64,000 bases of DNA from an uncultured Alphaproteobacteria bacterium (GTDB lineage Bacteria > Pseudomonadota > Alphaproteobacteria > Rhodospirillales > Rhodospirillaceae), in NCBI GenBank assembly GCA_902575965.1, contig CACGTM010000003.1, positions 20,660-84,659 on the forward strand, written 5' to 3'. The notes under the pieces were generated by a model. It made no database searches and was not told the origin of the DNA. It was given only the letters and a program-made list of their open reading frames with translations. Shown here piece by piece: positions 46,884 to 56,686 of this stretch; position 1 is the first letter of the stretch; each line of letters opens with the position of its first letter. Made by a program: the position numbers and the translations under genes.

Positions 46884-46959
46884 GATCCCGTAGTTAAACT
46901 GGATATAACCAAGGATTCCTAATCCTTAATTCTGAGTTCGAGTCTCGGCGGGATCACCA
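46884..46959 (+). tRNA. tRNA-Arg (anticodon CCT), CCA encoded
   Basis: The sequence is GATCCCGTAGTTAAACTGGATATAACCAAGGATTCCTAATCCTTAATTCTGAGTTCGAGTCTCGGCGGGATCACCA. It has a 7-bp acceptor stem, an anticodon stem AAGGA/TCCTT with loop TTCCTAA, and a T arm CTGAG-TTCGAGT-CTCGG. Confidence 0.9.
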
Positions 46960-46977
46960 CTTTTTTCCAATAAAATC

Positions 46978-47105: not shown

Positions 47106-47498
47106 ATGAAGAAACTCATTACCACACTTACACTTCTCCTGATGTTCTCATCACCTTCCTATGCGGAATGGGAGAGAGTGACTAAAAATACAGATGGAGA
47201 CACCTTCTATGTAGATTTTGACAGAATCAGGAAAGTGGATGGTTTCGTATATTATTGGGTGTTGCACGATTACTTGAAACCAGAGTCAAATGGAAACTTT
47301 TCTGGCAAAGGATATTATCAAGCGGACTGTAAGTTGTTTGGGTTCAAGATATTGAGTTTCTCGTTTCACACTCAACCAATGGGGAACGGAAAACCTCGTG
47401 CAAGTTTACCTTATAAATCGAAAGAATCGAAAAAATGGATAAACCCTCCTCCTAACTCTGGGAGTGAAACTCTCTTAAACGCAGTCTGTAATCGGTGA
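47106..47498 (+). CDS. Small secreted protein, surface-adhesin-E-like (paralog 1)
   Basis: The signal peptide is MKKLITTLTLLLMFSSPSYA. The mature part (EW.RV....G..FYVDFDRIRKVDGFVYYW...DC......NAVC) resembles the Adhesin_E family pattern, including a Cys pair. The family call is from memory. Confidence 0.5.
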   Translation: MKKLITTLTLLLMFSSPSYAEWERVTKNTDGDTFYVDFDRIRKVDGFVYYWVLHDYLKPESNGNFSGKGYYQADCKLFGFKILSFSFHTQPMGNGKPRASLPYKSKESKKWINPPPNSGSETLLNAVCNR

Positions 47499-47506
47499 AA
47501 GAAGTT

Positions 47507-47731
47507 ATGAAGAAACTGATTACCGCACTTACACTTCTAATAATGTTCTCCACACCTTCCTATGCGGAATGGAAGAGAGTGGGTAACACTACAAATGGAG
47601 ACTCATTCTATGTTGATTTTGACAGAATCAGAAAAGTTGATGGTTTTGTGTATTGGTGGCAGGTGACTGATTTCCTGAAACCAGATTACCGTGGGGACTT
47701 TTCATATAAAGCATATAGAAAAGGAGAGTAG
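47507..47731 (+). CDS. Truncated tandem paralog of the preceding secreted protein
   Basis: The signal peptide and first ~55 mature residues are near-identical to paralog 1 (MKKLITALTLLIMFSTPSYAEWKRVGNTTNGDSFYVDFDRIRKVDGFVYWW). It stops after 74 aa and lacks the Cys-containing C-terminal half. Confidence 0.45.
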   Translation: MKKLITALTLLIMFSTPSYAEWKRVGNTTNGDSFYVDFDRIRKVDGFVYWWQVTDFLKPDYRGDFSYKAYRKGE

Positions 47732-48320: not shown

Positions 48321-49892
48321 ATGAAAAATAAAACAAAAAATAATGAAGATATGATTGGTGCTCTATGGAAATCAGCGAATAAACTTCGCGATCAAATGGA
48401 TGCTGCAGAATATAAGCATATAGTACTAGGTTTGATTTTTCTAAAATATATTTCGGACTCTTTTTTAGAACAAAAGGAAAAGATTAAAAAAATAGTTACC
48501 AACCCAGAATCAGATTATTTTATAAGTGAGAATATAACTGATATTAATGAAAAAGATTTAGAGGATCGAGACTATTATACTAAAGATAATATCTTTTGGG
48601 TTCCTGAATCCGCAAGATGGGAAACTATAAGAAATCAAGCAAAACAATCTGATATAGGTTCAATTATTGATCGTGCCTTGGGTGAATTAGAAGGTAAAAA
48701 CAGGTCTCTAAAAGGTAAGTTAGATAAACGTTTTGGTAGAACACAACTTCAGGAAGGAAGGTTGGGTGAACTTATTGATGTTATTTCAACTATTGGTTTT
48801 TCTGATAAGCAAAAGGCAGGTGATATATTAGGTGAAGTCTATGAATACTTCCTTGGTCAATTTGCAACTCAAGAAGGTAAGAAAGGAGGTCAGTTTTATA
48901 CACCTAGGCATATAGTTAAAATTCTTGTTGAGGTTATATCTCCTCTTAAAGGGAGAGTTTATGACCCTTGTTGCGGTTCGGGCGGAATGTTTGTGCAAAG
49001 TGAGTCGTTTGTTAACGCGCACGGTGGTCGAAGGGATGATATTTCCATCTATGGGCAGGAGAGCAATCCAACTACTTGGCGATTAGTTGCAATGAACTTG
49101 GCAATTAGAGGTATCGCTGCTGACTTGGGTAAAGAACCCGCAGACACCTTTGCCCGTGACCAGTTTCCGGATGTGAAGTTCGACTACATCATGGCAAATC
49201 CACCCTTCAACATCTCTGACTGGGGTGGCGAGAAATACGAGAGTGACCCCCGTTGGCAGTTCGGTAGACCCCCAGTAGGCAATGCGAACTACGCATGGTT
49301 GCAACACATGTTGTGGAAATTGCGCCCGGGCGGTCAGGCAGGGGTTGTTCTTGCAAACGGTTCGATGAGTTCCAATACCGGTGGTGAAGGACAGATACGT
49401 GAAGCAATGGTGCGAGGTGACGTGGTTGAGGTCATGGTCGCATTGCCCGGTCAGTTGTTCCTGAATACGCAGATTCCTGTGTGTCTCTGGTTCCTCACCA
49501 ACGACAAGACAATGAACGGACGAGACCGCAGAGGTGAAACTCTGTTCATTGATGCACGGCAGTTGGGAACCATGGATACCCGTGTTCTTAAGGTCTTCAC
49601 CGATGAGGACATCGCAAAGATTCAAGAGATTGTTCAGTCTTGGAAGACGGGTGAAGATTACGAGGACATTGCGGGGTTCTGTAAGTCAGCGTCTTTGGAA
49701 GAGATTGAGAAGAATGGGTTCATATTAACGCCCGGAAGATACTGCGGTTCTGCAGAATCGTCAGTGAACGAAGAGGAGTTCCTCTCCGTCTTTGAGGCAC
49801 TGACATCTCAACTTAAAAATCAAAGAGAAATCTCATCACAACTGGATAGTGAAATTGAACGCAACCTAAGCGCACTGAGAGGTTCATCGTGA
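48321..49892 (+). CDS. hsdM: Type I restriction-modification system, N6-adenine DNA methyltransferase subunit
   Basis: It has an HsdM N-terminal domain (LWKSANKLRD...YKHIVLGLIFLKYISD), motif I (VYDPCCGSGGMF) and motif IV (NPPFN). Confidence 0.95.
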   Translation: MKNKTKNNEDMIGALWKSANKLRDQMDAAEYKHIVLGLIFLKYISDSFLEQKEKIKKIVTNPESDYFISENITDINEKDLEDRDYYTKDNIFWVPESARWETIRNQAKQSDIGSIIDRALGELEGKNRSLKGKLDKRFGRTQLQEGRLGELIDVISTIGFSDKQKAGDILGEVYEYFLGQFATQEGKKGGQFYTPRHIVKILVEVISPLKGRVYDPCCGSGGMFVQSESFVNAHGGRRDDISIYGQESNPTTWRLVAMNLAIRGIAADLGKEPADTFARDQFPDVKFDYIMANPPFNISDWGGEKYESDPRWQFGRPPVGNANYAWLQHMLWKLRPGGQAGVVLANGSMSSNTGGEGQIREAMVRGDVVEVMVALPGQLFLNTQIPVCLWFLTNDKTMNGRDRRGETLFIDARQLGTMDTRVLKVFTDEDIAKIQEIVQSWKTGEDYEDIAGFCKSASLEEIEKNGFILTPGRYCGSAESSVNEEEFLSVFEALTSQLKNQREISSQLDSEIERNLSALRGSS

Positions 49893-49893
49893 A

Positions 49894-51174
49894 ATGACGC
49901 TGCAGTCGCTCAACGAACTAATAGAAAAAGTTATAGACAATCGTGGGAAAACTCCGCCCCTTTCAGAGGTGCCTACGGAATATCCGTTAATCGAGGTAAA
50001 TGCGGTTCGAGGATCATCGCCGATTCCAAACAGATCGGTGTTTTCTAAGTGGGTCAGCAAAGATACTTATGGCAGTTGGTTCCGGAGCGGTCACCCCCAA
50101 CCCGGAGATGTATTAACTAGCACTGTGGGTTCTATAGGTGAATTTGCACTGCATGATGGCGAAGGAGCAATAGCGCAAAACATAGTCGGTCTGCGCTTTG
50201 ATCCTGCGAAATGCCACCCCAAATATGCTTATTACCTCTTCACAAATCCCACTAATAGAGAGCGAGTCAAAAACTTAGACATCAGTTCTGTTCAACCCAG
50301 CGTCAAAGTACCTCATCTCTTGTCGCTAGAGTTTGATTTGCCGCTTATCTCCGACCAAAAAGCAATTGCTCACATCCTTGGCACCCTTGACGATAAGATC
50401 GAACTAAACAAAAAAATAAACCAAACCCTTGAAGACATCGCCAAGGCAATCTTCAAGTCATGGTTTGTGGACTTTGATCCCGTGCGAGCAAAGGCAGAGG
50501 GTCGCCCCACAGTTCTTCCCCCTGAAATCAGTGACCTGTTTCCTGAGGAGTTGGTGGATTCGGAGATTGGGGAGATTCCGAAGGGATGGAACGTTGGGGC
50601 ACTATCAGATGTCGCTGACATTACTATGGGACAGTCACCGCCCGGAGATACCTACAACGATAATGGCGTTGGACTACCCTTTTACCAAGGCAGCACTGAT
50701 TTTGGATTTAGATTTCCGTCACTGAGAAAATACTGCTCAGAACCCAAACGACTCGCAGATGCAGATGATGTGTTAATTAGTGTCAGGGCACCTGTAGGTG
50801 ATCTGAATCGTGCAAAAGACGATTGTTGTATCGGACGAGGGTTAGCGTCATTGCGAGCGAAAAATTCGCTGCAAACTTGGGTTTTTTACAGATGCAAATT
50901 TCTGTCTCAGCAATTGGAAACATTCAACTCTGAGGGCACAGTATTCGGTTCGATTAACGGAAAGGACTTGAAGGGTCTTCCAACTATTCTTCCGCCTGAG
51001 GTCTTGTGCAAGGCGTTCGATGAAATTGGTAAACCGATGGATGACGCTGTGAGAAACAGAACTTTGGAAATCGAAGTTTTAACTGAACTCAGAGACACAC
51101 TCCTGCCCAAACTCATCTCCGGTGAACTCCGCATCCCTGACGCAGAGAAGTTCCTTGAAGAGGCGGGTATCTGA
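49894..51174 (+). CDS. hsdS: Type I R-M specificity subunit, copy 1
   Basis: 426 aa with two target-recognition domains. These are separated by the conserved helical spacer (ILGTLDDKIELNKKINQTLEDIAKAIFKSWFVDFDPVR) and followed by the C-terminal conserved helix (LTELRDTLLPKLISGELRI). It starts 1 nt after the hsdM stop. Confidence 0.9.
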   Translation: MTLQSLNELIEKVIDNRGKTPPLSEVPTEYPLIEVNAVRGSSPIPNRSVFSKWVSKDTYGSWFRSGHPQPGDVLTSTVGSIGEFALHDGEGAIAQNIVGLRFDPAKCHPKYAYYLFTNPTNRERVKNLDISSVQPSVKVPHLLSLEFDLPLISDQKAIAHILGTLDDKIELNKKINQTLEDIAKAIFKSWFVDFDPVRAKAEGRPTVLPPEISDLFPEELVDSEIGEIPKGWNVGALSDVADITMGQSPPGDTYNDNGVGLPFYQGSTDFGFRFPSLRKYCSEPKRLADADDVLISVRAPVGDLNRAKDDCCIGRGLASLRAKNSLQTWVFYRCKFLSQQLETFNSEGTVFGSINGKDLKGLPTILPPEVLCKAFDEIGKPMDDAVRNRTLEIEVLTELRDTLLPKLISGELRIPDAEKFLEEAGI

Positions 51175-51182
51175 TGGCGTTG
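50536..51182 (+). repeat. 647-bp perfect direct repeat, copy 1 (TRD2 plus the hsdS 3' end plus 8 nt past the stop)
   Basis: My base-by-base visual comparison with 51822-52468 (offset 1286) found no mismatch. Confidence 0.85.
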
Positions 51183-52460
51183 GTAACCGAAGATAAATAC
51201 GTTCACAGTCTATCTGACGTAATTAACTTAATTGGAGGCGGCACTCCCAAACGTTCAATCAGTGAATATTGGAATGGCGATATACCATGGTTATCTGTTA
51301 AAGATTTTAACCATGGCGGCAGGTATGTTGAAGAATCTGATGAAACCATTACCCAACTGGGACTGAAGAAGAGTAGCACTAAATTATTAAAACCTGGAAT
51401 GCTAATAATTTCAGCGAGAGGCACAGTTGGTGAACTCGCACAACTTAAGACTGAAATGGCATTTAACCAATCCTGTTACGGCATAGATGCAAAGACGCAA
51501 TACCTTGATAATAACTATCTATATTATCTGCTCAAATTAAAGATAAGAGAATTAAAGTCGATCGCTCACGGGTCTGTTTTTGACACAATAACAAGAGACA
51601 CTTTTGAAAATATTGAAGTCGAGATTCCCAGCAAATATGACCAAGAAGCAATCGTCCACATCCTTGGCAGTCTAGACGATAAGATCGAACTCAACCAAAA
51701 GATGACCCAAACGCTTGAGGAGATCGCCAAGGCAATCTTTAAGTCATGGTTTGTGGATTTTGATCCCGTGCGTGCAAAGGCAGAGGGTCTTCCCACACGT
51801 CTTCCCCCTGAAATCAGTGATCTGTTTCCTGAGGAGTTGGTGGATTCGGAGATTGGGGAGATTCCGAAGGGATGGAACGTTGGGGCACTATCAGATGTCG
51901 CTGACATTACTATGGGACAGTCACCGCCCGGAGATACCTACAACGATAATGGCGTTGGACTACCCTTTTACCAAGGCAGCACTGATTTTGGATTTAGATT
52001 TCCGTCACTGAGAAAATACTGCTCAGAACCCAAACGACTCGCAGATGCAGATGATGTGTTAATTAGTGTCAGGGCACCTGTAGGTGATCTGAATCGTGCA
52101 AAAGACGATTGTTGTATCGGACGAGGGTTAGCGTCATTGCGAGCGAAAAATTCGCTGCAAACTTGGGTTTTTTACAGATGCAAATTTCTGTCTCAGCAAT
52201 TGGAAACATTCAACTCTGAGGGCACAGTATTCGGTTCGATTAACGGAAAGGACTTGAAGGGTCTTCCAACTATTCTTCCGCCTGAGGTCTTGTGCAAGGC
52301 GTTCGATGAAATTGGTAAACCGATGGATGACGCTGTGAGAAACAGAACTTTGGAAATCGAAGTTTTAACTGAACTCAGAGACACACTCCTGCCCAAACTC
52401 ATCTCCGGTGAACTCCGCATCCCTGACGCAGAGAAGTTCCTTGAAGAGGCGGGTATCTGA
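51174..52460 (+). CDS. hsdS: Type I R-M specificity subunit, copy 2 (different TRD1, identical TRD2)
   Basis: 428 aa. The N-terminal TRD is unrelated to copy 1. From LFPEELVDSEIGE to the C-terminus it is 100% identical to copy 1. It has TGATG start/stop overlaps on both sides. Confidence 0.9.
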   Translation: MALVTEDKYVHSLSDVINLIGGGTPKRSISEYWNGDIPWLSVKDFNHGGRYVEESDETITQLGLKKSSTKLLKPGMLIISARGTVGELAQLKTEMAFNQSCYGIDAKTQYLDNNYLYYLLKLKIRELKSIAHGSVFDTITRDTFENIEVEIPSKYDQEAIVHILGSLDDKIELNQKMTQTLEEIAKAIFKSWFVDFDPVRAKAEGLPTRLPPEISDLFPEELVDSEIGEIPKGWNVGALSDVADITMGQSPPGDTYNDNGVGLPFYQGSTDFGFRFPSLRKYCSEPKRLADADDVLISVRAPVGDLNRAKDDCCIGRGLASLRAKNSLQTWVFYRCKFLSQQLETFNSEGTVFGSINGKDLKGLPTILPPEVLCKAFDEIGKPMDDAVRNRTLEIEVLTELRDTLLPKLISGELRIPDAEKFLEEAGI

Positions 52461-52468
52461 TGGCGTTG
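51822..52468 (+). repeat. 647-bp perfect direct repeat, copy 2
   Basis: It is identical to 50536-51182. Near-identity continues for 12 more nt into hsdR with one mismatch. Confidence 0.85.
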
Positions 52469-55400
52469 ATAACCGAAGATCAAGTTGAACTGCAGAGTAT
52501 CGAATGGTTCAAAGACCTTGGTTACCAGTACGTTTGTGGGTATGACATTGCGGTTGATGGAGAGACACCAGAACGCACCGACTACCGCTCAGTAGTCCTT
52601 AAAGATCGACTGCTCTCTGCACTGACCCGGATCAATCCAGATATTCCTAAGTCAGCGATAGACACTGCTCTGTCTCAACTGATGAACCCCAACATCCCTG
52701 CCCTCATGTCGTGCAATCGACAGGTGCATTCGTGGTTAACCAAAGGAGTGAAGGTCACCTATCAGGAAGGTAACGAGACCGTTGGTAAGCAACTCAAGGT
52801 CATCGACTTCGATAATCCTGAGAACAACGACTGGTTGGTAGTGAATCAATTCACCATTCACGGTCAGAAACCCAGAAGACCAGACATTATAGTTTTTATA
52901 AATGGACTGCCTCTTGGAGTTATAGAACTTAAAAATCCTGCTGATGTAAATGCAGATATTTGGTCTGCTTTTAATCAACTTGAAACTTATAAAGAAGATA
53001 TTCCTGATTTGTTTAATTCAAATGGAGTCTTAGTAATATCTGATGGTGTACAGGCACGTATGGGTTCCATTACAGCATCACAAGAAAGGTTTATGAGGTG
53101 GAGAACGATCGATGGCGAAACTGTGGATCCTTTGGGTTCCTATCAAGATCTAGAAACTTTAATTAGAGGACTATTTAGTAAAGAAACATTTCTAAACTTT
53201 ATTAGATATTTTTGTATCTTTGAAAGTAAAGAAAACATCATTAAGAAGATTGCTGGGTATCATCAGTTTTACGCTGTTCAAAAAGCACATGAGAAAATAG
53301 TTGATGCATCAAAAATAGACGGAAGCAAAAAAGGTGGTGTGGTGTGGCACACCCAAGGTGCGGGAAAAAGTTTAGAAATGACCTGTCTTGCAGGTAGGAT
53401 AATCTCTGATCCCCGATTAAAAAACCCAACCATAGTTATGATAACGGACCGACAAGATTTAGATGGACAATTATTTGGGGTCTTTAATGATGCTGGTAAT
53501 TTATTGGGGGAAGAACCTAAACAAGCAGACACTATTAAAGACCTAAAAGACCTTCTTTTGAATAGACCTTCTGGTGGAATTATCTTTACTACCATTCAAA
53601 AATTTAAACCTGATAAAACTGAAGAAAAATTTCCCGTATTAACTGACCGTCATAACGTTATAGTAATGTGTGATGAGGCACACAGAACTCAATACGGATT
53701 CAAAGGTGTTATTGACCAAAAGACAGGTCAAATTAGGTATGGTTTGGCGCGTGCATTAAGAGATGGTCTTCCCAATGCAACCTTTATTGCTTTTACAGGG
53801 ACGCCAATTTCTCAGGATGACAGAGATACGCAAGCAGTCTTTGGTGAGTATGTCGATGTCTATGACATTCAACAAGCAGTTGAAGATGGCGCGACGGTTC
53901 CTATCTATTATGAGTCGCGACTTGCTAAGATAAAAATAGATGAATCCAAATTACCCGAGATTGACGAAGAAGTAGAAGAAATATTCGAAGATGGAATTGA
54001 AGATTATGAACAGCAAGAAAAAGCAAAAATTAAATGGTCACAAATTGAAGCATTGGTAGGGGCACAACCAAGATTAAAAGAAGTTGCAGAGGATATTATT
54101 GAACATTTTCACATACGGCAAAAGACACAACCAGGAAAGGCACTGATTGTTGGAATGAGTCGTGATATTTGTGCTCGTCTTTATGATGAATTGATCAAGA
54201 TAAAACCTCAATGGGGAAATGATGATCATAATTCAGGTGTAATTAAAGTAGTGATGACGGCATCTGCAAGTGACGAAAAATATTTACAGAAGCATAATAC
54301 GTCTAAACAGCAGAAAAAAGATTTAGAAAAAAGATTTAAAGATCCTTCTGATGAATTACAAATAGTAATCGTTCGAGATATGTGGTTAACAGGTTTTGAT
54401 GCGCCATGTTTATCGACAATGTATGTTGATAAACCAATGAAGGGAGCAAACCTGGCACAAGCAATTGCTAGGGTAAACAGGGTTTTCGCTGATAAACCTG
54501 GTGGTTTAATAGTCGATTACATCGGCATTGCACCCCAACTTAAAGATGCACTGGCAACGTATAGTGCAAGCAAAGGCAGAGGAAAACCAACTATTGATGC
54601 AGACGAGGCACTTAATTTGCTCAAAGAGAAATTAGATGTTGCAAGAGATTTGCTTTATCCTGTTAACTGGTCAGAATATCAAACAAAAGCACTTCAACTT
54701 TTGCCTGAGTGTATCGAACATATCTTAGAATTAGAAGATGGAAGAAAAAGATACTGTGATGTAGTTTTACAAATGACTAAAGCATTTGCTTTATGCGGCG
54801 CTATGGATGATGCTTTAGTTTTTGCAGAAGAAGTTGCATTTCATCAAGCGATTAGAGCGCCACTCATCAAGACAGCGAGAAAAGGTGGAAGAGGTCAGTT
54901 CAAAGACACCGATTTTGAACTTAAACAATTAGTTTCTGAGTCACTTGTGTCAAGTGGGGTCACAGACTTGTTTGAGGTTGCAGGAATAAAAACCCCGGAT
55001 ATTTCAATTCTTTCTGACGAATTTTTAGCAGAAGTACAAAAAATAAAATATAAAAATGTTGCGGTAGAGTTATTAAATAAATTGCTTAATGATGAAGTGA
55101 AGTCAAAGTTTCGAACAAATATGGTCAAGCAAAAAAAATTCAGTGATCGACTTAAGGTTTCTCTTTCTAAATATCAAAATAGATCTATTGAAGCAGCGCA
55201 GGTTATTGCCGAACTGATTGAAATGGCAAAAGACTTTAAGAATGATTTAGAAAAGTCAAAAGAACTCAATTTAAGTCCGGACGAAAATGCTTTTTATGAT
55301 GCACTTTGTAATAATAAGTCTGCGGAAGAACTTATGGGTGAGGATGTTCTTATACAAATTGCTAGAGAGATTTCTGAGAAATTAAGACAAAATGTGACTG

Positions 55401-55561
55401 TTGATTGGTCTCAAAGAGAGTCTGTCCGTGCAAGACTGAGGTTATTGGTGAAAAATCTCCTTAGAAGATATAAATACCCACCCGATGACCAAGATGAGGC
55501 AACTAAGTTAATTTTATCTCAGGCAGAAGTAATTTCAGAAAACATGCTGTCCAATAATTAA
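52460..55561 (+). CDS. hsdR: Type I restriction enzyme, endonuclease/translocase subunit
   Basis: 1033 aa. It has an N-terminal PD-(D/E)xK-like region (RPDIIVFINGLPLGVIELK), helicase motif I (HTQGAGKS), a DEAH box (MCDEAHRTQ), FTGTP and a later QAIARVNR. Confidence 0.95.
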   Translation: MALITEDQVELQSIEWFKDLGYQYVCGYDIAVDGETPERTDYRSVVLKDRLLSALTRINPDIPKSAIDTALSQLMNPNIPALMSCNRQVHSWLTKGVKVTYQEGNETVGKQLKVIDFDNPENNDWLVVNQFTIHGQKPRRPDIIVFINGLPLGVIELKNPADVNADIWSAFNQLETYKEDIPDLFNSNGVLVISDGVQARMGSITASQERFMRWRTIDGETVDPLGSYQDLETLIRGLFSKETFLNFIRYFCIFESKENIIKKIAGYHQFYAVQKAHEKIVDASKIDGSKKGGVVWHTQGAGKSLEMTCLAGRIISDPRLKNPTIVMITDRQDLDGQLFGVFNDAGNLLGEEPKQADTIKDLKDLLLNRPSGGIIFTTIQKFKPDKTEEKFPVLTDRHNVIVMCDEAHRTQYGFKGVIDQKTGQIRYGLARALRDGLPNATFIAFTGTPISQDDRDTQAVFGEYVDVYDIQQAVEDGATVPIYYESRLAKIKIDESKLPEIDEEVEEIFEDGIEDYEQQEKAKIKWSQIEALVGAQPRLKEVAEDIIEHFHIRQKTQPGKALIVGMSRDICARLYDELIKIKPQWGNDDHNSGVIKVVMTASASDEKYLQKHNTSKQQKKDLEKRFKDPSDELQIVIVRDMWLTGFDAPCLSTMYVDKPMKGANLAQAIARVNRVFADKPGGLIVDYIGIAPQLKDALATYSASKGRGKPTIDADEALNLLKEKLDVARDLLYPVNWSEYQTKALQLLPECIEHILELEDGRKRYCDVVLQMTKAFALCGAMDDALVFAEEVAFHQAIRAPLIKTARKGGRGQFKDTDFELKQLVSESLVSSGVTDLFEVAGIKTPDISILSDEFLAEVQKIKYKNVAVELLNKLLNDEVKSKFRTNMVKQKKFSDRLKVSLSKYQNRSIEAAQVIAELIEMAKDFKNDLEKSKELNLSPDENAFYDALCNNKSAEELMGEDVLIQIAREISEKLRQNVTVDWSQRESVRARLRLLVKNLLRRYKYPPDDQDEATKLILSQAEVISENMLSNN

Positions 55562-56391: not shown

Positions 56392-56472
56392 TCGTTTTTA
56401 AGGAATTTTAAAAAGTTAGATAAAGTATTGATCTTATTGCATGAAATAGGAATATACATTGAAGTCATTTTT

Positions 56473-56528
56473 TATAACAAAGGATTCCTAATCCTTAATT
56501 CTGGGTTCGAGTCCCGGCGGGATCACCA
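56473..56528 (+). repeat. Displaced 3' fragment of tRNA-Arg(CCT) (attR-like direct repeat)
   Basis: The sequence is TATAACAAAGGATTCCTAATCCTTAATTCTGGGTTCGAGTCCCGGCGGGATCACCA. It matches 46904-46959 at 53/56 positions. It has no 5' half, so it is not a functional tRNA. Confidence 0.8.
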
Positions 56529-56686
56529 TTTTTCTGCTTTTTAATACTTTAATTTAATAATTGTAAATTAATTATCAAAAATTTAATAATTATACTATTC
56601 AATATCAGATTATTTTTGGGTAAAGATTGACAGATTTAGATATTTATTTTCAGGATATATTTAGAATACTCACTAGAGGTAATATT

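What the first reader, a model, noticed from the sequence alone, without database searches (positions are those of the whole stretch)
49894..52484. Two full-length tandem hsdS genes share a 647-bp perfect direct repeat, and the copy-2 start codon region is derived from hsdR
**Seen in the sequence:**
- The operon is hsdM-hsdS1-hsdS2-hsdR.
- S1 and S2 have unrelated N-terminal target-recognition domains (TRD1).
- From 50536/51822 onward, the whole of TRD2 and the C-terminal helix are identical base for base over 647 nt.
- The ~165 nt just before that point (the central conserved spacer, 50372-50535 vs 51658-51821) carry about 19 mismatches by my manual alignment.
- Identity therefore jumps abruptly from about 88% to 100%.
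- The repeat runs past the hsdS stop. The first 21 nt of hsdS2 (ATGGCGTTGGTAACCGAAGAT, MALVTED) are a 20/21 copy of the first 21 nt of hsdR (ATGGCGTTGATAACCGAAGAT, MALITED). This preserves the junction of the duplication.
- Both copies keep the TGATG stop/start overlap.

**Inference:**
- Both S subunits are probably co-translated with one M and one R. That would give two bipartite recognition sequences that share one half-site.
- RecA-dependent recombination between the direct repeats could delete or amplify one specificity.
- Classical phase-variable hsdS shufflons use inverted repeats and a recombinase. Neither is present here.
Basis: partly seen in the sequence, partly recalled or inferred. 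Interest (0 to 1): 0.8.

Follow-up and report, generated by a model that had tools for sequence, protein, structure and literature searches.

The report
Two tandem hsdS genes, one operon
A type I restriction-modification operon carries two complete specificity genes in a row that share an identical second half, and the sequence preserves the joint where the second gene was made, but loci with several specificity genes are already well known.

Summary
hsdM (48321-49892), hsdS1 (49894-51174), hsdS2 (51174-52460) and hsdR (52460-55561) form one operon. A perfect 647-nt direct repeat (50536-51182 = 51822-52468) covers the second recognition domain (TRD2) and the C-terminal helix. It is preceded by a central conserved region that is only 87-88% identical.

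The first 21 nt of hsdS2 do come from hsdR:
- HsdR starts MAL[V/I]TED in 10 of 11 relatives (MPLVTED in L084).
- Twelve natural HsdS proteins with the same first domain start M[V/I]xQ/K.
- Natural single-copy loci carry the 9-nt GATCAAGTT at both the hsdS start and the hsdR start, exactly at the joint.

Independent TRD2 alleles are 87-96% identical in DNA, so the 100% identity reflects a recent event inside this lineage.

New here: the whole block 49114-52869 is a recombinant patch. It is 92-93% identical to Tara Oceans scaffolds and has foreign codon composition, and it sits inside a resident hsdM/hsdR.

None of about 130 related loci has a tandem pair. However, REBASE holds thousands of type I loci with two or more hsdS genes, and same-orientation arrays have been described.

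Function is inferred, not shown: two enzymes sharing one half-site. This is a neat evolutionary snapshot of moderate interest.

The parts
48321..49892 (+). hsdM (523 aa). The 5' part up to about 49113 has resident, host-like composition. The 3' part from about 49114 belongs to the imported patch.
   Evidence: ORF. Pfam HsdM_N and N6_Mtase. Change point at 49114, with 36% versus 7% divergence from L128. GC3 is 0.15-0.20 before it and 0.45-0.68 after it.
49894..51174 (+). hsdS1 (426 aa): TRD1a (49894 to about 50352), central conserved region a (50353-50535), then the shared TRD2 and C-terminal helix.
   Evidence: The N-terminus MTLQSLNELIEKVIDNRGKTPP matches native homologues such as P0125. TRD1a has only about 50%-identical relatives.
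50536..51182 (+). Direct repeat, copy 1: end of the central conserved region, TRD2, C-terminal helix, stop codon and the first 9 nt of the next gene.
   Evidence: 647-nt perfect match at offset 1286.
51174..51194 (+). hsdR-derived start of hsdS2 (ATGGCGTTGGTAACCGAAGAT, MALVTED). The ribosome-binding region upstream lies inside the repeat and is identical to that of hsdR.
   Evidence: Matches 20 of 21 nt of the hsdR start in the window and 21 of 21 in L128. The hsdR start is conserved in 10 of 11 relatives.
51195..51200 (+). Six-base filler AAATAC at the joint, where native genes have CAA.
   Evidence: Comparison with the native starts of L120 and L135, ATGGTTGATCAAGTT(C/T)AC.
51174..52460 (+). 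hsdS2 (428 aa): chimeric start, TRD1b (51201 to about 51638), central conserved region b (51639-51821), then the shared TRD2 and C-terminal helix.
   Evidence: TRD1b is 88-89% identical in DNA to L120 and L135. AlphaFold2 model has mean pLDDT 85.4, with residues 1-5 below 50 and the first strand at residue 10.
51822..52468 (+). Direct repeat, copy 2.
52460..55561 (+). hsdR (1033 aa). The first 410 nt belong to the imported patch and the rest is resident. The A at 52469 is derived, because relatives and the hsdS2 copy have G.
   Evidence: Change point at 52870, with 7% versus 38% divergence from L128. GC3 is 0.47-0.62 before it and 0.10-0.35 after it.
49114..52869 (+). Recombinant patch: a specificity cassette imported by homologous exchange within hsdM and hsdR.
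   Evidence: Its hsdM, TRD2 and hsdR parts are 92-96% identical to L128-L131 and L107. The flanks are nearest to L101, L106 and L002, at only 74-80%.
46884..46964 (+). tRNA-Arg(CCT) (46884-46959), and the left copy (46904-46964) of the 61-nt repeat that bounds the island carrying the operon.
   Evidence: ARAGORN, Rfam, repeat family D4.
56473..56533 (+). Right copy of the tRNA-Arg 3' repeat (57 of 61 nt). It resembles an attachment-site remnant.
   Evidence: D4. Not a tRNA by Rfam.

Best explanation
This is a real type I restriction-modification operon, hsdM-hsdS1-hsdS2-hsdR, with two full-length specificity genes in direct tandem.

**Origin (inferred)**
1. In an ancestor of the form hsdM-hsdS(TRD1b-TRD2)-hsdR, an illegitimate exchange took place between sister copies. 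It occurred at the short homology GATCAAGTT, which natural loci carry both 6 nt into hsdS and 18 nt into hsdR.
2. This exchange duplicated a unit running from the hsdS start to hsdR nucleotide 21. The downstream copy therefore begins with hsdR's ribosome-binding region, its ATG and its first seven codons, joined in frame through a 6-nt filler.
3. An ordinary allelic recombination then replaced TRD1 and most of the central region of the upstream copy with a different allele (TRD1a). Its right-hand crossover lay in the central conserved region, at or just after 50535/50536.
4. That crossover explains the abrupt step from 88% to 100% identity.
5. The whole cassette lies in a patch that entered a resident operon by crossovers inside hsdM and hsdR.

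**Function (inferred from the modular rules of HsdS)**
- Both S subunits are translated by coupling. Each assembles with the single HsdM and HsdR.
- This gives two methyltransferase/endonuclease specificities with different first half-sites, the same second half-site and the same spacer length.
- Homologous recombination between the 647-nt repeats can delete S2 or amplify it.
For: **Shown**
- Gene order, intact ORFs and domain content.
- Perfect 647-nt repeat, and 19 mismatches just upstream of it.
- The central regions have equal length, because the offset stays at 1286 from 50353 onward.
- S1 versus S2 central regions are 87.4% identical. That is the same range as unrelated natural alleles (73-90%). 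TRD2 is 100% identical here against 87-96% among natural alleles.
- The hsdR start MAL[V/I]TED is conserved in 10 of 11 loci.
- Twelve native TRD1b-type HsdS proteins start M[V/I]xQ/K.
- L120 carries GATCAAGTT at both its hsdS start and its hsdR start. L135 carries it at its hsdS start. L128, L107 and the window carry it at the hsdR start.
- L128 has G where hsdR has A at 52469, so the hsdS2 copy keeps the ancestral base.
- Patch boundaries at 49114 and 52870, with matching jumps in GC3 and in nearest relatives.
- The S2 model is a normal two-TRD, two-helix HsdS with a disordered residue 1-5 tail.

**From the literature**
- Each TRD sets one half-site, and crossovers in the central region swap TRDs (PMC3874165).
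- Extra HsdS subunits are reported to co-purify with the BlihIA complex, and S. aureus and L. lactis are cited as carrying additional hsdS genes away from hsdR (PMC12429846, PMC6241649).
Against: - No expression, methylation or restriction data exist for this organism.
- The order of the two events cannot be fixed. They may have happened in the donor lineage before import.
- The joint itself reads GAT-AAATAC-GTT, not GATCAAGTT. The microhomology is seen only in relatives, so a filler or later mutation must be assumed.
- None of about 130 related loci shows an intermediate, such as a tandem of two identical copies.
- The sequence is a single draft contig of an uncultured organism, and no reads were available to check it.
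Confidence: 0.6

Rival explanations
1. The structure is the same but the history differs. Two different alleles (S_a and S_b) were joined directly by one illegitimate event between hsdR nt 21 of one DNA molecule and the start of hsdS_b on another, for example incoming DNA. The two 3' halves were later made identical by gene conversion over 50536-51182.
For: - Both central regions are about equally distant from L128, at roughly 8% each.
- The perfect tract ends at a single mismatch (51183), only 12 nt before homology ends. That could be the edge of a conversion tract.
- Gene conversion between close direct repeats is a well-established process (general knowledge).
Against: - It needs two different alleles in one cell, plus a conversion tract that happens to cover the whole 3' half up to the end of homology.
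- The mismatch at 52469 is explained more simply as a later substitution in hsdR, because relatives have G there.
Confidence: 0.2
2. The tandem is real but it is a very young, neutral or mildly harmful duplication on its way to being lost. Only one S subunit matters. For example, S2 with its foreign N-terminus may assemble poorly, or S1 may dominate.
For: - Zero differences in 647 nt, and one in 659 nt, indicate a very recent event.
- None of about 130 related loci keeps a tandem.
- Long perfect direct repeats are unstable in recombination-proficient cells (general knowledge).
Against: - Both ORFs are intact, and both keep the coupled stop/start overlap.
- The borrowed residues lie before the first structured element of the model and before the Pfam domain, which starts at residue 9.
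- Acquiring a different TRD1 in the upstream copy is what would be expected if two specificities were useful.
Confidence: 0.12
3. Assembly artefact. The tandem, the mosaic, or both were created when a metagenome or single-cell data set containing several hsd alleles was assembled.
For: - The proteins occur in one NCBI contig only.
- The host appears uncultured.
- A 647-nt perfect repeat exceeds short-read length.
- Huang et al. excluded metagenome-derived hsdS loci from their survey for fear of misassembly (PMC7672463).
- The two patch boundaries lie in conserved parts of hsdM and hsdR, where contigs of two populations could be cross-joined.
Against: - The joint 'hsdS 3' end + hsdR nt 1-21 + AAATAC + TRD1b' is a novel sequence. 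It shares at most 9 nt with any native hsdS start, which is too short for k-mer assembly to invent. Reads must therefore contain an hsdS 3' end directly upstream of TRD1b.
- Given the four observed junctions, the tandem is the only path that uses all segments.
- The fusion is in frame, and the G/A difference distinguishes the two copies.
- The mosaic cannot be cleared in this way.
Confidence: 0.08

Closest known systems
Type I R-M loci with two or more hsdS genes ('S+ systems' in REBASE; for example Moraxella catarrhalis Mca25240ORF1547P with hsdS1 and hsdS2)
   Same: - One hsdM and one hsdR are served by more than one hsdS in the same locus.
- TRDs are shared and exchanged between the copies.
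- Most such loci (3292 minus 827) have no invertase (PMC7672463, PMC6241649).
   Different: - Here both genes are full length, directly adjacent and translationally coupled between hsdM and hsdR.
- Their whole 3' half is identical base for base.
- The downstream copy starts with codons taken from hsdR.
- I did not find this exact layout described, but I did not search REBASE itself.
Mycoplasma faucium hsdM-hsdS-hsdS'-hsdS''-hsdR array (PMC11062135)
   Same: Tandem hsdS genes, all in the same orientation, between hsdM and hsdR. Direct repeats lie at their 3' ends, gene ends overlap, and no inverted repeats are present.
   Different: - There the downstream copies are 5'-truncated pseudogenes with 28-bp repeats, proposed as a reservoir for recombination.
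- Here the downstream copy is a complete gene with its own start, and the repeat is 647 nt long.
Pneumococcal tvr locus (SpnIV), excision-reintegration at direct repeats (PMC6265443)
   Same: Direct rather than inverted repeats lie within hsdS sequences. The longer repeats also recombine, inefficiently, without the dedicated recombinase.
   Different: - tvr has a dedicated recombinase (TvrR), a toxin-antitoxin pair and half-gene TRD cassettes that are shuffled.
- None of these is present here. With an identical TRD2 in both genes, no new combination can arise.
Classical TRD exchange by crossover in the central conserved region (StySB/StySP giving StySQ; EcoR124I/EcoDXXI hybrids; reviewed in PMC3874165)
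   Same: The step from 88% to 100% identity lies in the central conserved region, the known site of crossovers that swap TRD1 against a constant TRD2. Two enzymes sharing one half-site are the expected product.
   Different: In the classical cases the two parents and the hybrid are alternative alleles in different strains. Here both combinations sit side by side in one operon.
Inverting hsdS shufflons (SpnD39III/ivr, Mycoplasma pulmonis hsd, Bacteroides fragilis; PMC7394358, PMC7672463)
   Same: Several hsdS sequences that share conserved segments lie in one type I locus.
   Different: Those systems need inverted repeats, oppositely oriented silent copies and usually an invertase. All three features were tested here and are absent.

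Membership tests
Type I restriction-modification system | HsdM with an N-terminal HsdM domain and an N6-adenine methyltransferase domain | tested here: met
   PF12161 (E = 4.6e-24) and PF02384 (E = 1.6e-105) in 48321-49892.
Type I restriction-modification system | HsdS with two target recognition domains separated by, and ending in, long conserved helices | tested here: met
   PF01420 matches twice in both S1 and S2. PDB S subunits 1YF2, 3OKG and 5YBB match. The S2 model has helices 154-194 and 371-411.
Type I restriction-modification system | HsdR with an N-terminal nuclease domain, an SF2 motor and a C-terminal domain, encoded next to hsdM and hsdS | tested here: met
   PF04313, PF18766, PF22679 and PF11867 in 52460-55561. 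The genes are contiguous.
Type I restriction-modification system | Bipartite m6A methylation and ATP-dependent restriction activity | not testable with these tools
   Needs a methylome or biochemistry.
Multi-hsdS ('S+') type I locus | At least two hsdS genes in one hsd locus | tested here: met
   Two full-length hsdS ORFs lie between hsdM and hsdR.
Inverting hsdS shufflon (epigenetic inverton) | Inverted repeats (15-20 bp or longer) within or between hsdS sequences | tested here: not met
   No exact inverted repeat of 16 nt or more between 49894-52460 and any part of the window. The best imperfect one is 22 nt at 82%.
Inverting hsdS shufflon (epigenetic inverton) | Site-specific recombinase (invertase) in or beside the locus | tested here: not met
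   No recombinase or integrase domain in the 24 ORFs scanned between 37.8 and 63.4 kb. A recombinase encoded elsewhere in the genome cannot be excluded.
tvr-type excision-reintegration locus | Direct repeats flanking half-gene TRD cassettes, plus a locus-encoded recombinase and toxin-antitoxin regulators | tested here: not met
   Direct repeats are present. However, the genes are complete, and no recombinase or toxin-antitoxin genes lie in the locus.

The most novel reading that the evidence does not exclude
The tandem may be a recombinase-independent specificity switch based on copy number, rather than a passing accident. RecA-mediated unequal exchange between the 647-nt repeats would continually produce one-specificity (S1 only), two-specificity and S2-amplified cells in the population. 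This would tune which half-site pair is restricted and methylated. It would be a direct-repeat counterpart of hsdS phase variation, in a free-living marine bacterium.
Probability: 0.08. Interest if true: 0.55.

Novelty: new member of a known kind. Interest (0 to 1): 0.3.

Why it matters
The locus shows, step by step, how a type I system can acquire a second specificity without a second methyltransferase or endonuclease.

- A short-homology tandem duplication gives the new hsdS copy the translation start of the downstream gene.
- A crossover in the central region then supplies a different first recognition domain.
- The cassette as a whole moves between lineages by recombination within hsdM and hsdR.

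This offers a concrete model for the origin of the many multi-hsdS loci in REBASE that lack invertases. It also yields a simple testable prediction: two m6A motifs with one common half-site and the same spacer length.

It does not reveal a new kind of system or a new mechanism of DNA recognition.

Tried and rejected
- **Exact-protein look-ups** of S1 and S2 found no contig. The proteins are singletons from one 86,060-bp NCBI contig, so no independent assembly of this locus could be examined.
- **P0122**, a 38-aa cluster-mate of HsdM, proved unrelated to the locus.
- **P0032**, the closest TRD1b/central-region-b relative, has no retrievable DNA.
- **Search for other tandem pairs.** I looked in 80 species-representative genome loci plus L001, 44 metagenome loci with HMM hits out of 45 fetched, 96 plasmid records and five close relatives' contigs. 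No tandem pair was found. Apparent doubles turned out otherwise:
  - L017 and L022 have a partial match in another ORF.
  - L112 and L115 have frameshifted single genes.
  - The two matching places in plasmid hit H9 were not both resolved; the place inspected is a single hsdS.
  - L120 has an hsdS interrupted by a transposase-carrying insertion.
- **Population-level conservation** of TRD2 as the reason for the 100% identity is rejected. Independent alleles are 87-96% identical.
- **GC content** as a way to order the two events is rejected, because the whole patch has the same composition.
- **Promoter and terminator scan** gave numbers near those of shuffled sequence and no convincing internal promoter for S2.
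- **Recognition sequences** were not predicted, because REBASE was not available.
Full report
**1. What is in the sequence**

Four contiguous plus-strand ORFs form one operon:
- hsdM, 48321-49892
- hsdS1, 49894-51174
- hsdS2, 51174-52460
- hsdR, 52460-55561

Pfam assigns them as follows:
- hsdM: HsdM_N and N6_Mtase.
- Each S gene: two Methylase_S domains.
- hsdR: HSDR_N, SWI2_SNF2, T1R_D3 and T1RH-like_C.

S2 also matches solved S subunits (1YF2, E = 3e-49; 3OKG and 5YBB).

At a constant offset of 1286 nt, the two S genes are identical over 647 nt (50536-51182 = 51822-52468). The 164 nt before that carry 19 mismatches. Further upstream, identity is at the random level. After one mismatch (51183 G, 52469 A), 11 more bases agree, and similarity then ends at 51194/52480.

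Both gene boundaries keep the TGATG overlap. The two N-terminal TRDs are only distantly related, with 24% identity over 82 residues.

**2. The start of hsdS2 comes from hsdR**

- In 10 of 11 related loci, hsdR begins MAL[V/I]TED followed by [Q/L/H][V/L]E; L084 begins MPLVTED.
- Twelve natural HsdS proteins with the same TRD1 as S2 begin M[V/I][D/E/N/K][Q/K][V/A]xRL[S/T]DV. None begins MALVTED.
- S1 has the N-terminus that is native for its own TRD type.
- The related Tara Oceans scaffold L128 has exactly the hsdS2 version of the 21-mer, with G at the variable position. The A in the window's hsdR is therefore a later substitution.
- Because the repeat includes the end of hsdS, hsdS2 also inherits hsdR's ribosome-binding region.

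**3. How the joint may have formed**

- In the natural locus L120, the hsdS start is ATGGTTGATCAAGTTCAC and the hsdR start is ATGGCACTGGTAACCGAAGATCAAGTTGAA.
- The 9-mer GATCAAGTT thus occurs 6 nt into hsdS and 18 nt into hsdR.
- L135 has the same 9-mer at its hsdS start. L128, L107 and the window have it at the hsdR start.
- By my own estimate, a 9-nt match between two 30-nt stretches is expected by chance about 0.002 times.
- An unequal exchange at this homology in an hsdM-hsdS-hsdR locus would give exactly the observed architecture.
- The actual joint reads GAT-AAATAC-GTTCAC where GAT-CAA-GTTCAC is predicted. A 6-nt filler or later change must therefore be assumed. This step is inference.

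**4. Why identity jumps from 88% to 100%**

- The two central conserved regions are 87.4% identical. That is no closer than those of unrelated natural alleles, which are 73-90% identical.
- The TRD2 parts are 100% identical. Natural TRD2 alleles of the same type are 87-96% identical in DNA: L082-L084 at 90-93%, L128 at 96%, L132 at 96%.
- The 5' parts therefore come from two independent alleles, and the 3' parts come from one recent copy.
- The simplest history has two steps. First, a tandem duplication of a TRD1b-type gene. Second, replacement of TRD1 and the central region of the upstream copy by allelic recombination. The left crossover was in hsdM. The right crossover was in the central conserved region, the classical site of TRD exchange (PMC3874165).
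- The alternative is an illegitimate joining of two alleles followed by gene conversion. It cannot be excluded.

**5. The cassette is itself imported**

- Against L128, divergence is 36% before 49114 and 7% after it in hsdM. In hsdR it is 7% before 52870 and 38% after it.
- Third-position GC is 0.15-0.20 in the hsdM 5' part and mostly 0.20-0.35 in the hsdR 3' part. Ordinary genes of the window have 0.25-0.29. Between the breakpoints it is 0.45-0.68.
- Nearest relatives change as well. The patch is closest to L128-L131 and L107 (92-96%). The flanks are closest to L101, L106 and L002 (74-80%).
- So about 3.76 kb was exchanged by recombination inside the conserved genes: 780 nt of hsdM, both S genes and 410 nt of hsdR. 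Alternatively, the contig is a chimera of two populations. This cannot be decided without reads.

**6. Context**

- The operon lies in a 9.6-kb segment between tRNA-Arg(CCT) (46884-46959) and a 57/61 copy of the tRNA's 3' end at 56473-56533. No integrase is present in this segment.
- In relatives (L001, L128, L132, L134), single-copy hsdM-hsdS-hsdR operons lie within a few kilobases of phage-type integrase genes.
- No recombinase domain was found in the 24 ORFs scanned between 37.8 and 63.4 kb.
- No exact inverted repeat of 16 nt or more touches the hsdS genes.
- The host is probably an uncultured marine alphaproteobacterium. The best named hits to MsbA, at 52-58% identity, are Rhodospirillaceae metagenome-assembled genomes.

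**7. Is the tandem real?**

- The joint sequence cannot be produced by k-mer assembly from native alleles, because they share 9 nt at most.
- Reads must therefore contain an hsdS 3' end directly upstream of TRD1b.
- Given the four junctions, the tandem is the only path through the repeat that uses all segments.
- I estimate the risk of artefact for the tandem at about 8%. The risk is higher for the mosaic.

**8. Likely function**

- Both ORFs are intact.
- The S2 model (mean pLDDT 85.4) is a normal HsdS. Residues 1-5 are disordered and the first strand begins at residue 10. The borrowed residues lie outside the fold.
- The central regions have the same length.
- By the established modularity of HsdS, the operon should specify two enzymes with different first half-sites, a common second half-site and equal spacers. 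This is inference.
- Recombination between the repeats can only remove S2 or multiply it. It cannot leave S2 alone and cannot create a new combination.

**9. Rarity and novelty**

No other tandem pair was seen in any of these sets:
- 81 genome loci
- 44 metagenome loci with HMM hits
- 96 plasmid records
- five close relatives' contigs

Short-read assemblies may under-represent such repeats, so this absence is weak evidence.

In the literature:
- 3292 REBASE type I loci have two or more hsdS genes, and only 827 of them have invertases (PMC7672463).
- A same-orientation hsdS array with direct repeats is described in Mycoplasma faucium (PMC11062135).
- Direct-repeat shuffling is described in the pneumococcal tvr locus (PMC6265443).
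- Two hsdS genes in one locus occur in Moraxella catarrhalis (PMC6241649) and in the Bacillus licheniformis BlihIA system, which has one full-length and one half-size copy (PMC12429846).

The locus is therefore a new member of a known kind. Its value is that the steps of its formation are still legible in the sequence.

Noticed in passing
window 49114-52869: The centre of the hsd operon is a recombinant patch: the 3' part of hsdM, both hsdS genes and the first 410 nt of hsdR. It is 92-96% identical to Tara Oceans scaffolds and has third-position GC of 0.45-0.68. The rest of hsdM and hsdR is only about 60-65% identical to those scaffolds and has host-like composition.
   Followed up: yes
window 46884-46964 and 56473-56533: The 3' 61 nt of tRNA-Arg(CCT) is repeated (57 of 61 nt) 9.6 kb downstream. 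The two copies bracket the hsd operon, two Adhesin_E-like genes, an unknown ORF and a zinc peptidase gene. The segment looks like an integrated island that has lost its integrase.
   Followed up: partly
window 56430-56528: ARAGORN calls a 99-nt 'tRNA-Met' here. Rfam finds no tRNA, and the 3' part is the tRNA-Arg repeat. It is probably a false call on an attachment-site remnant.
   Followed up: partly
window 47106-47498 and 47495-47731: Two adjacent Adhesin_E (PF16747) paralogues share a 211-nt repeat at 80% identity. The second is truncated to 78 aa.
   Followed up: no
window 50018-50040: A terminator-like hairpin followed by a T-run lies inside the TRD1a coding part of hsdS1, on the plus strand. 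It may be a chance match.
   Followed up: no
L120 3966-8180 (protein P0104): A related TRD1b-type hsdS is interrupted within its second half by an insertion of about 2.5 kb that encodes a Tn5-like transposase domain. The hsdS C-terminal end resumes just before hsdR.
   Followed up: partly
homologues P0024, P0027, P0043, P0058, P0064, P0066; plasmid locus L127: Many family members fuse HsdS to nucleotidyltransferase (PF18765/PF01909) or DUF559 (PF04480) domains. An Acetobacter plasmid has a pair of nucleotidyltransferase genes (substrate-binding protein and nucleotidyltransferase domain protein) between hsdM and hsdS.
   Followed up: no
L001, L128, L132, L134: Single-copy relatives of this operon lie within a few kilobases of phage-type integrase genes. 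L128 and L134 each carry a nearby PF04326 (SLFN/AlbA_2) gene, fused to a GmrSD_N domain in L128. This suggests the system travels on integrative islands.
   Followed up: partly
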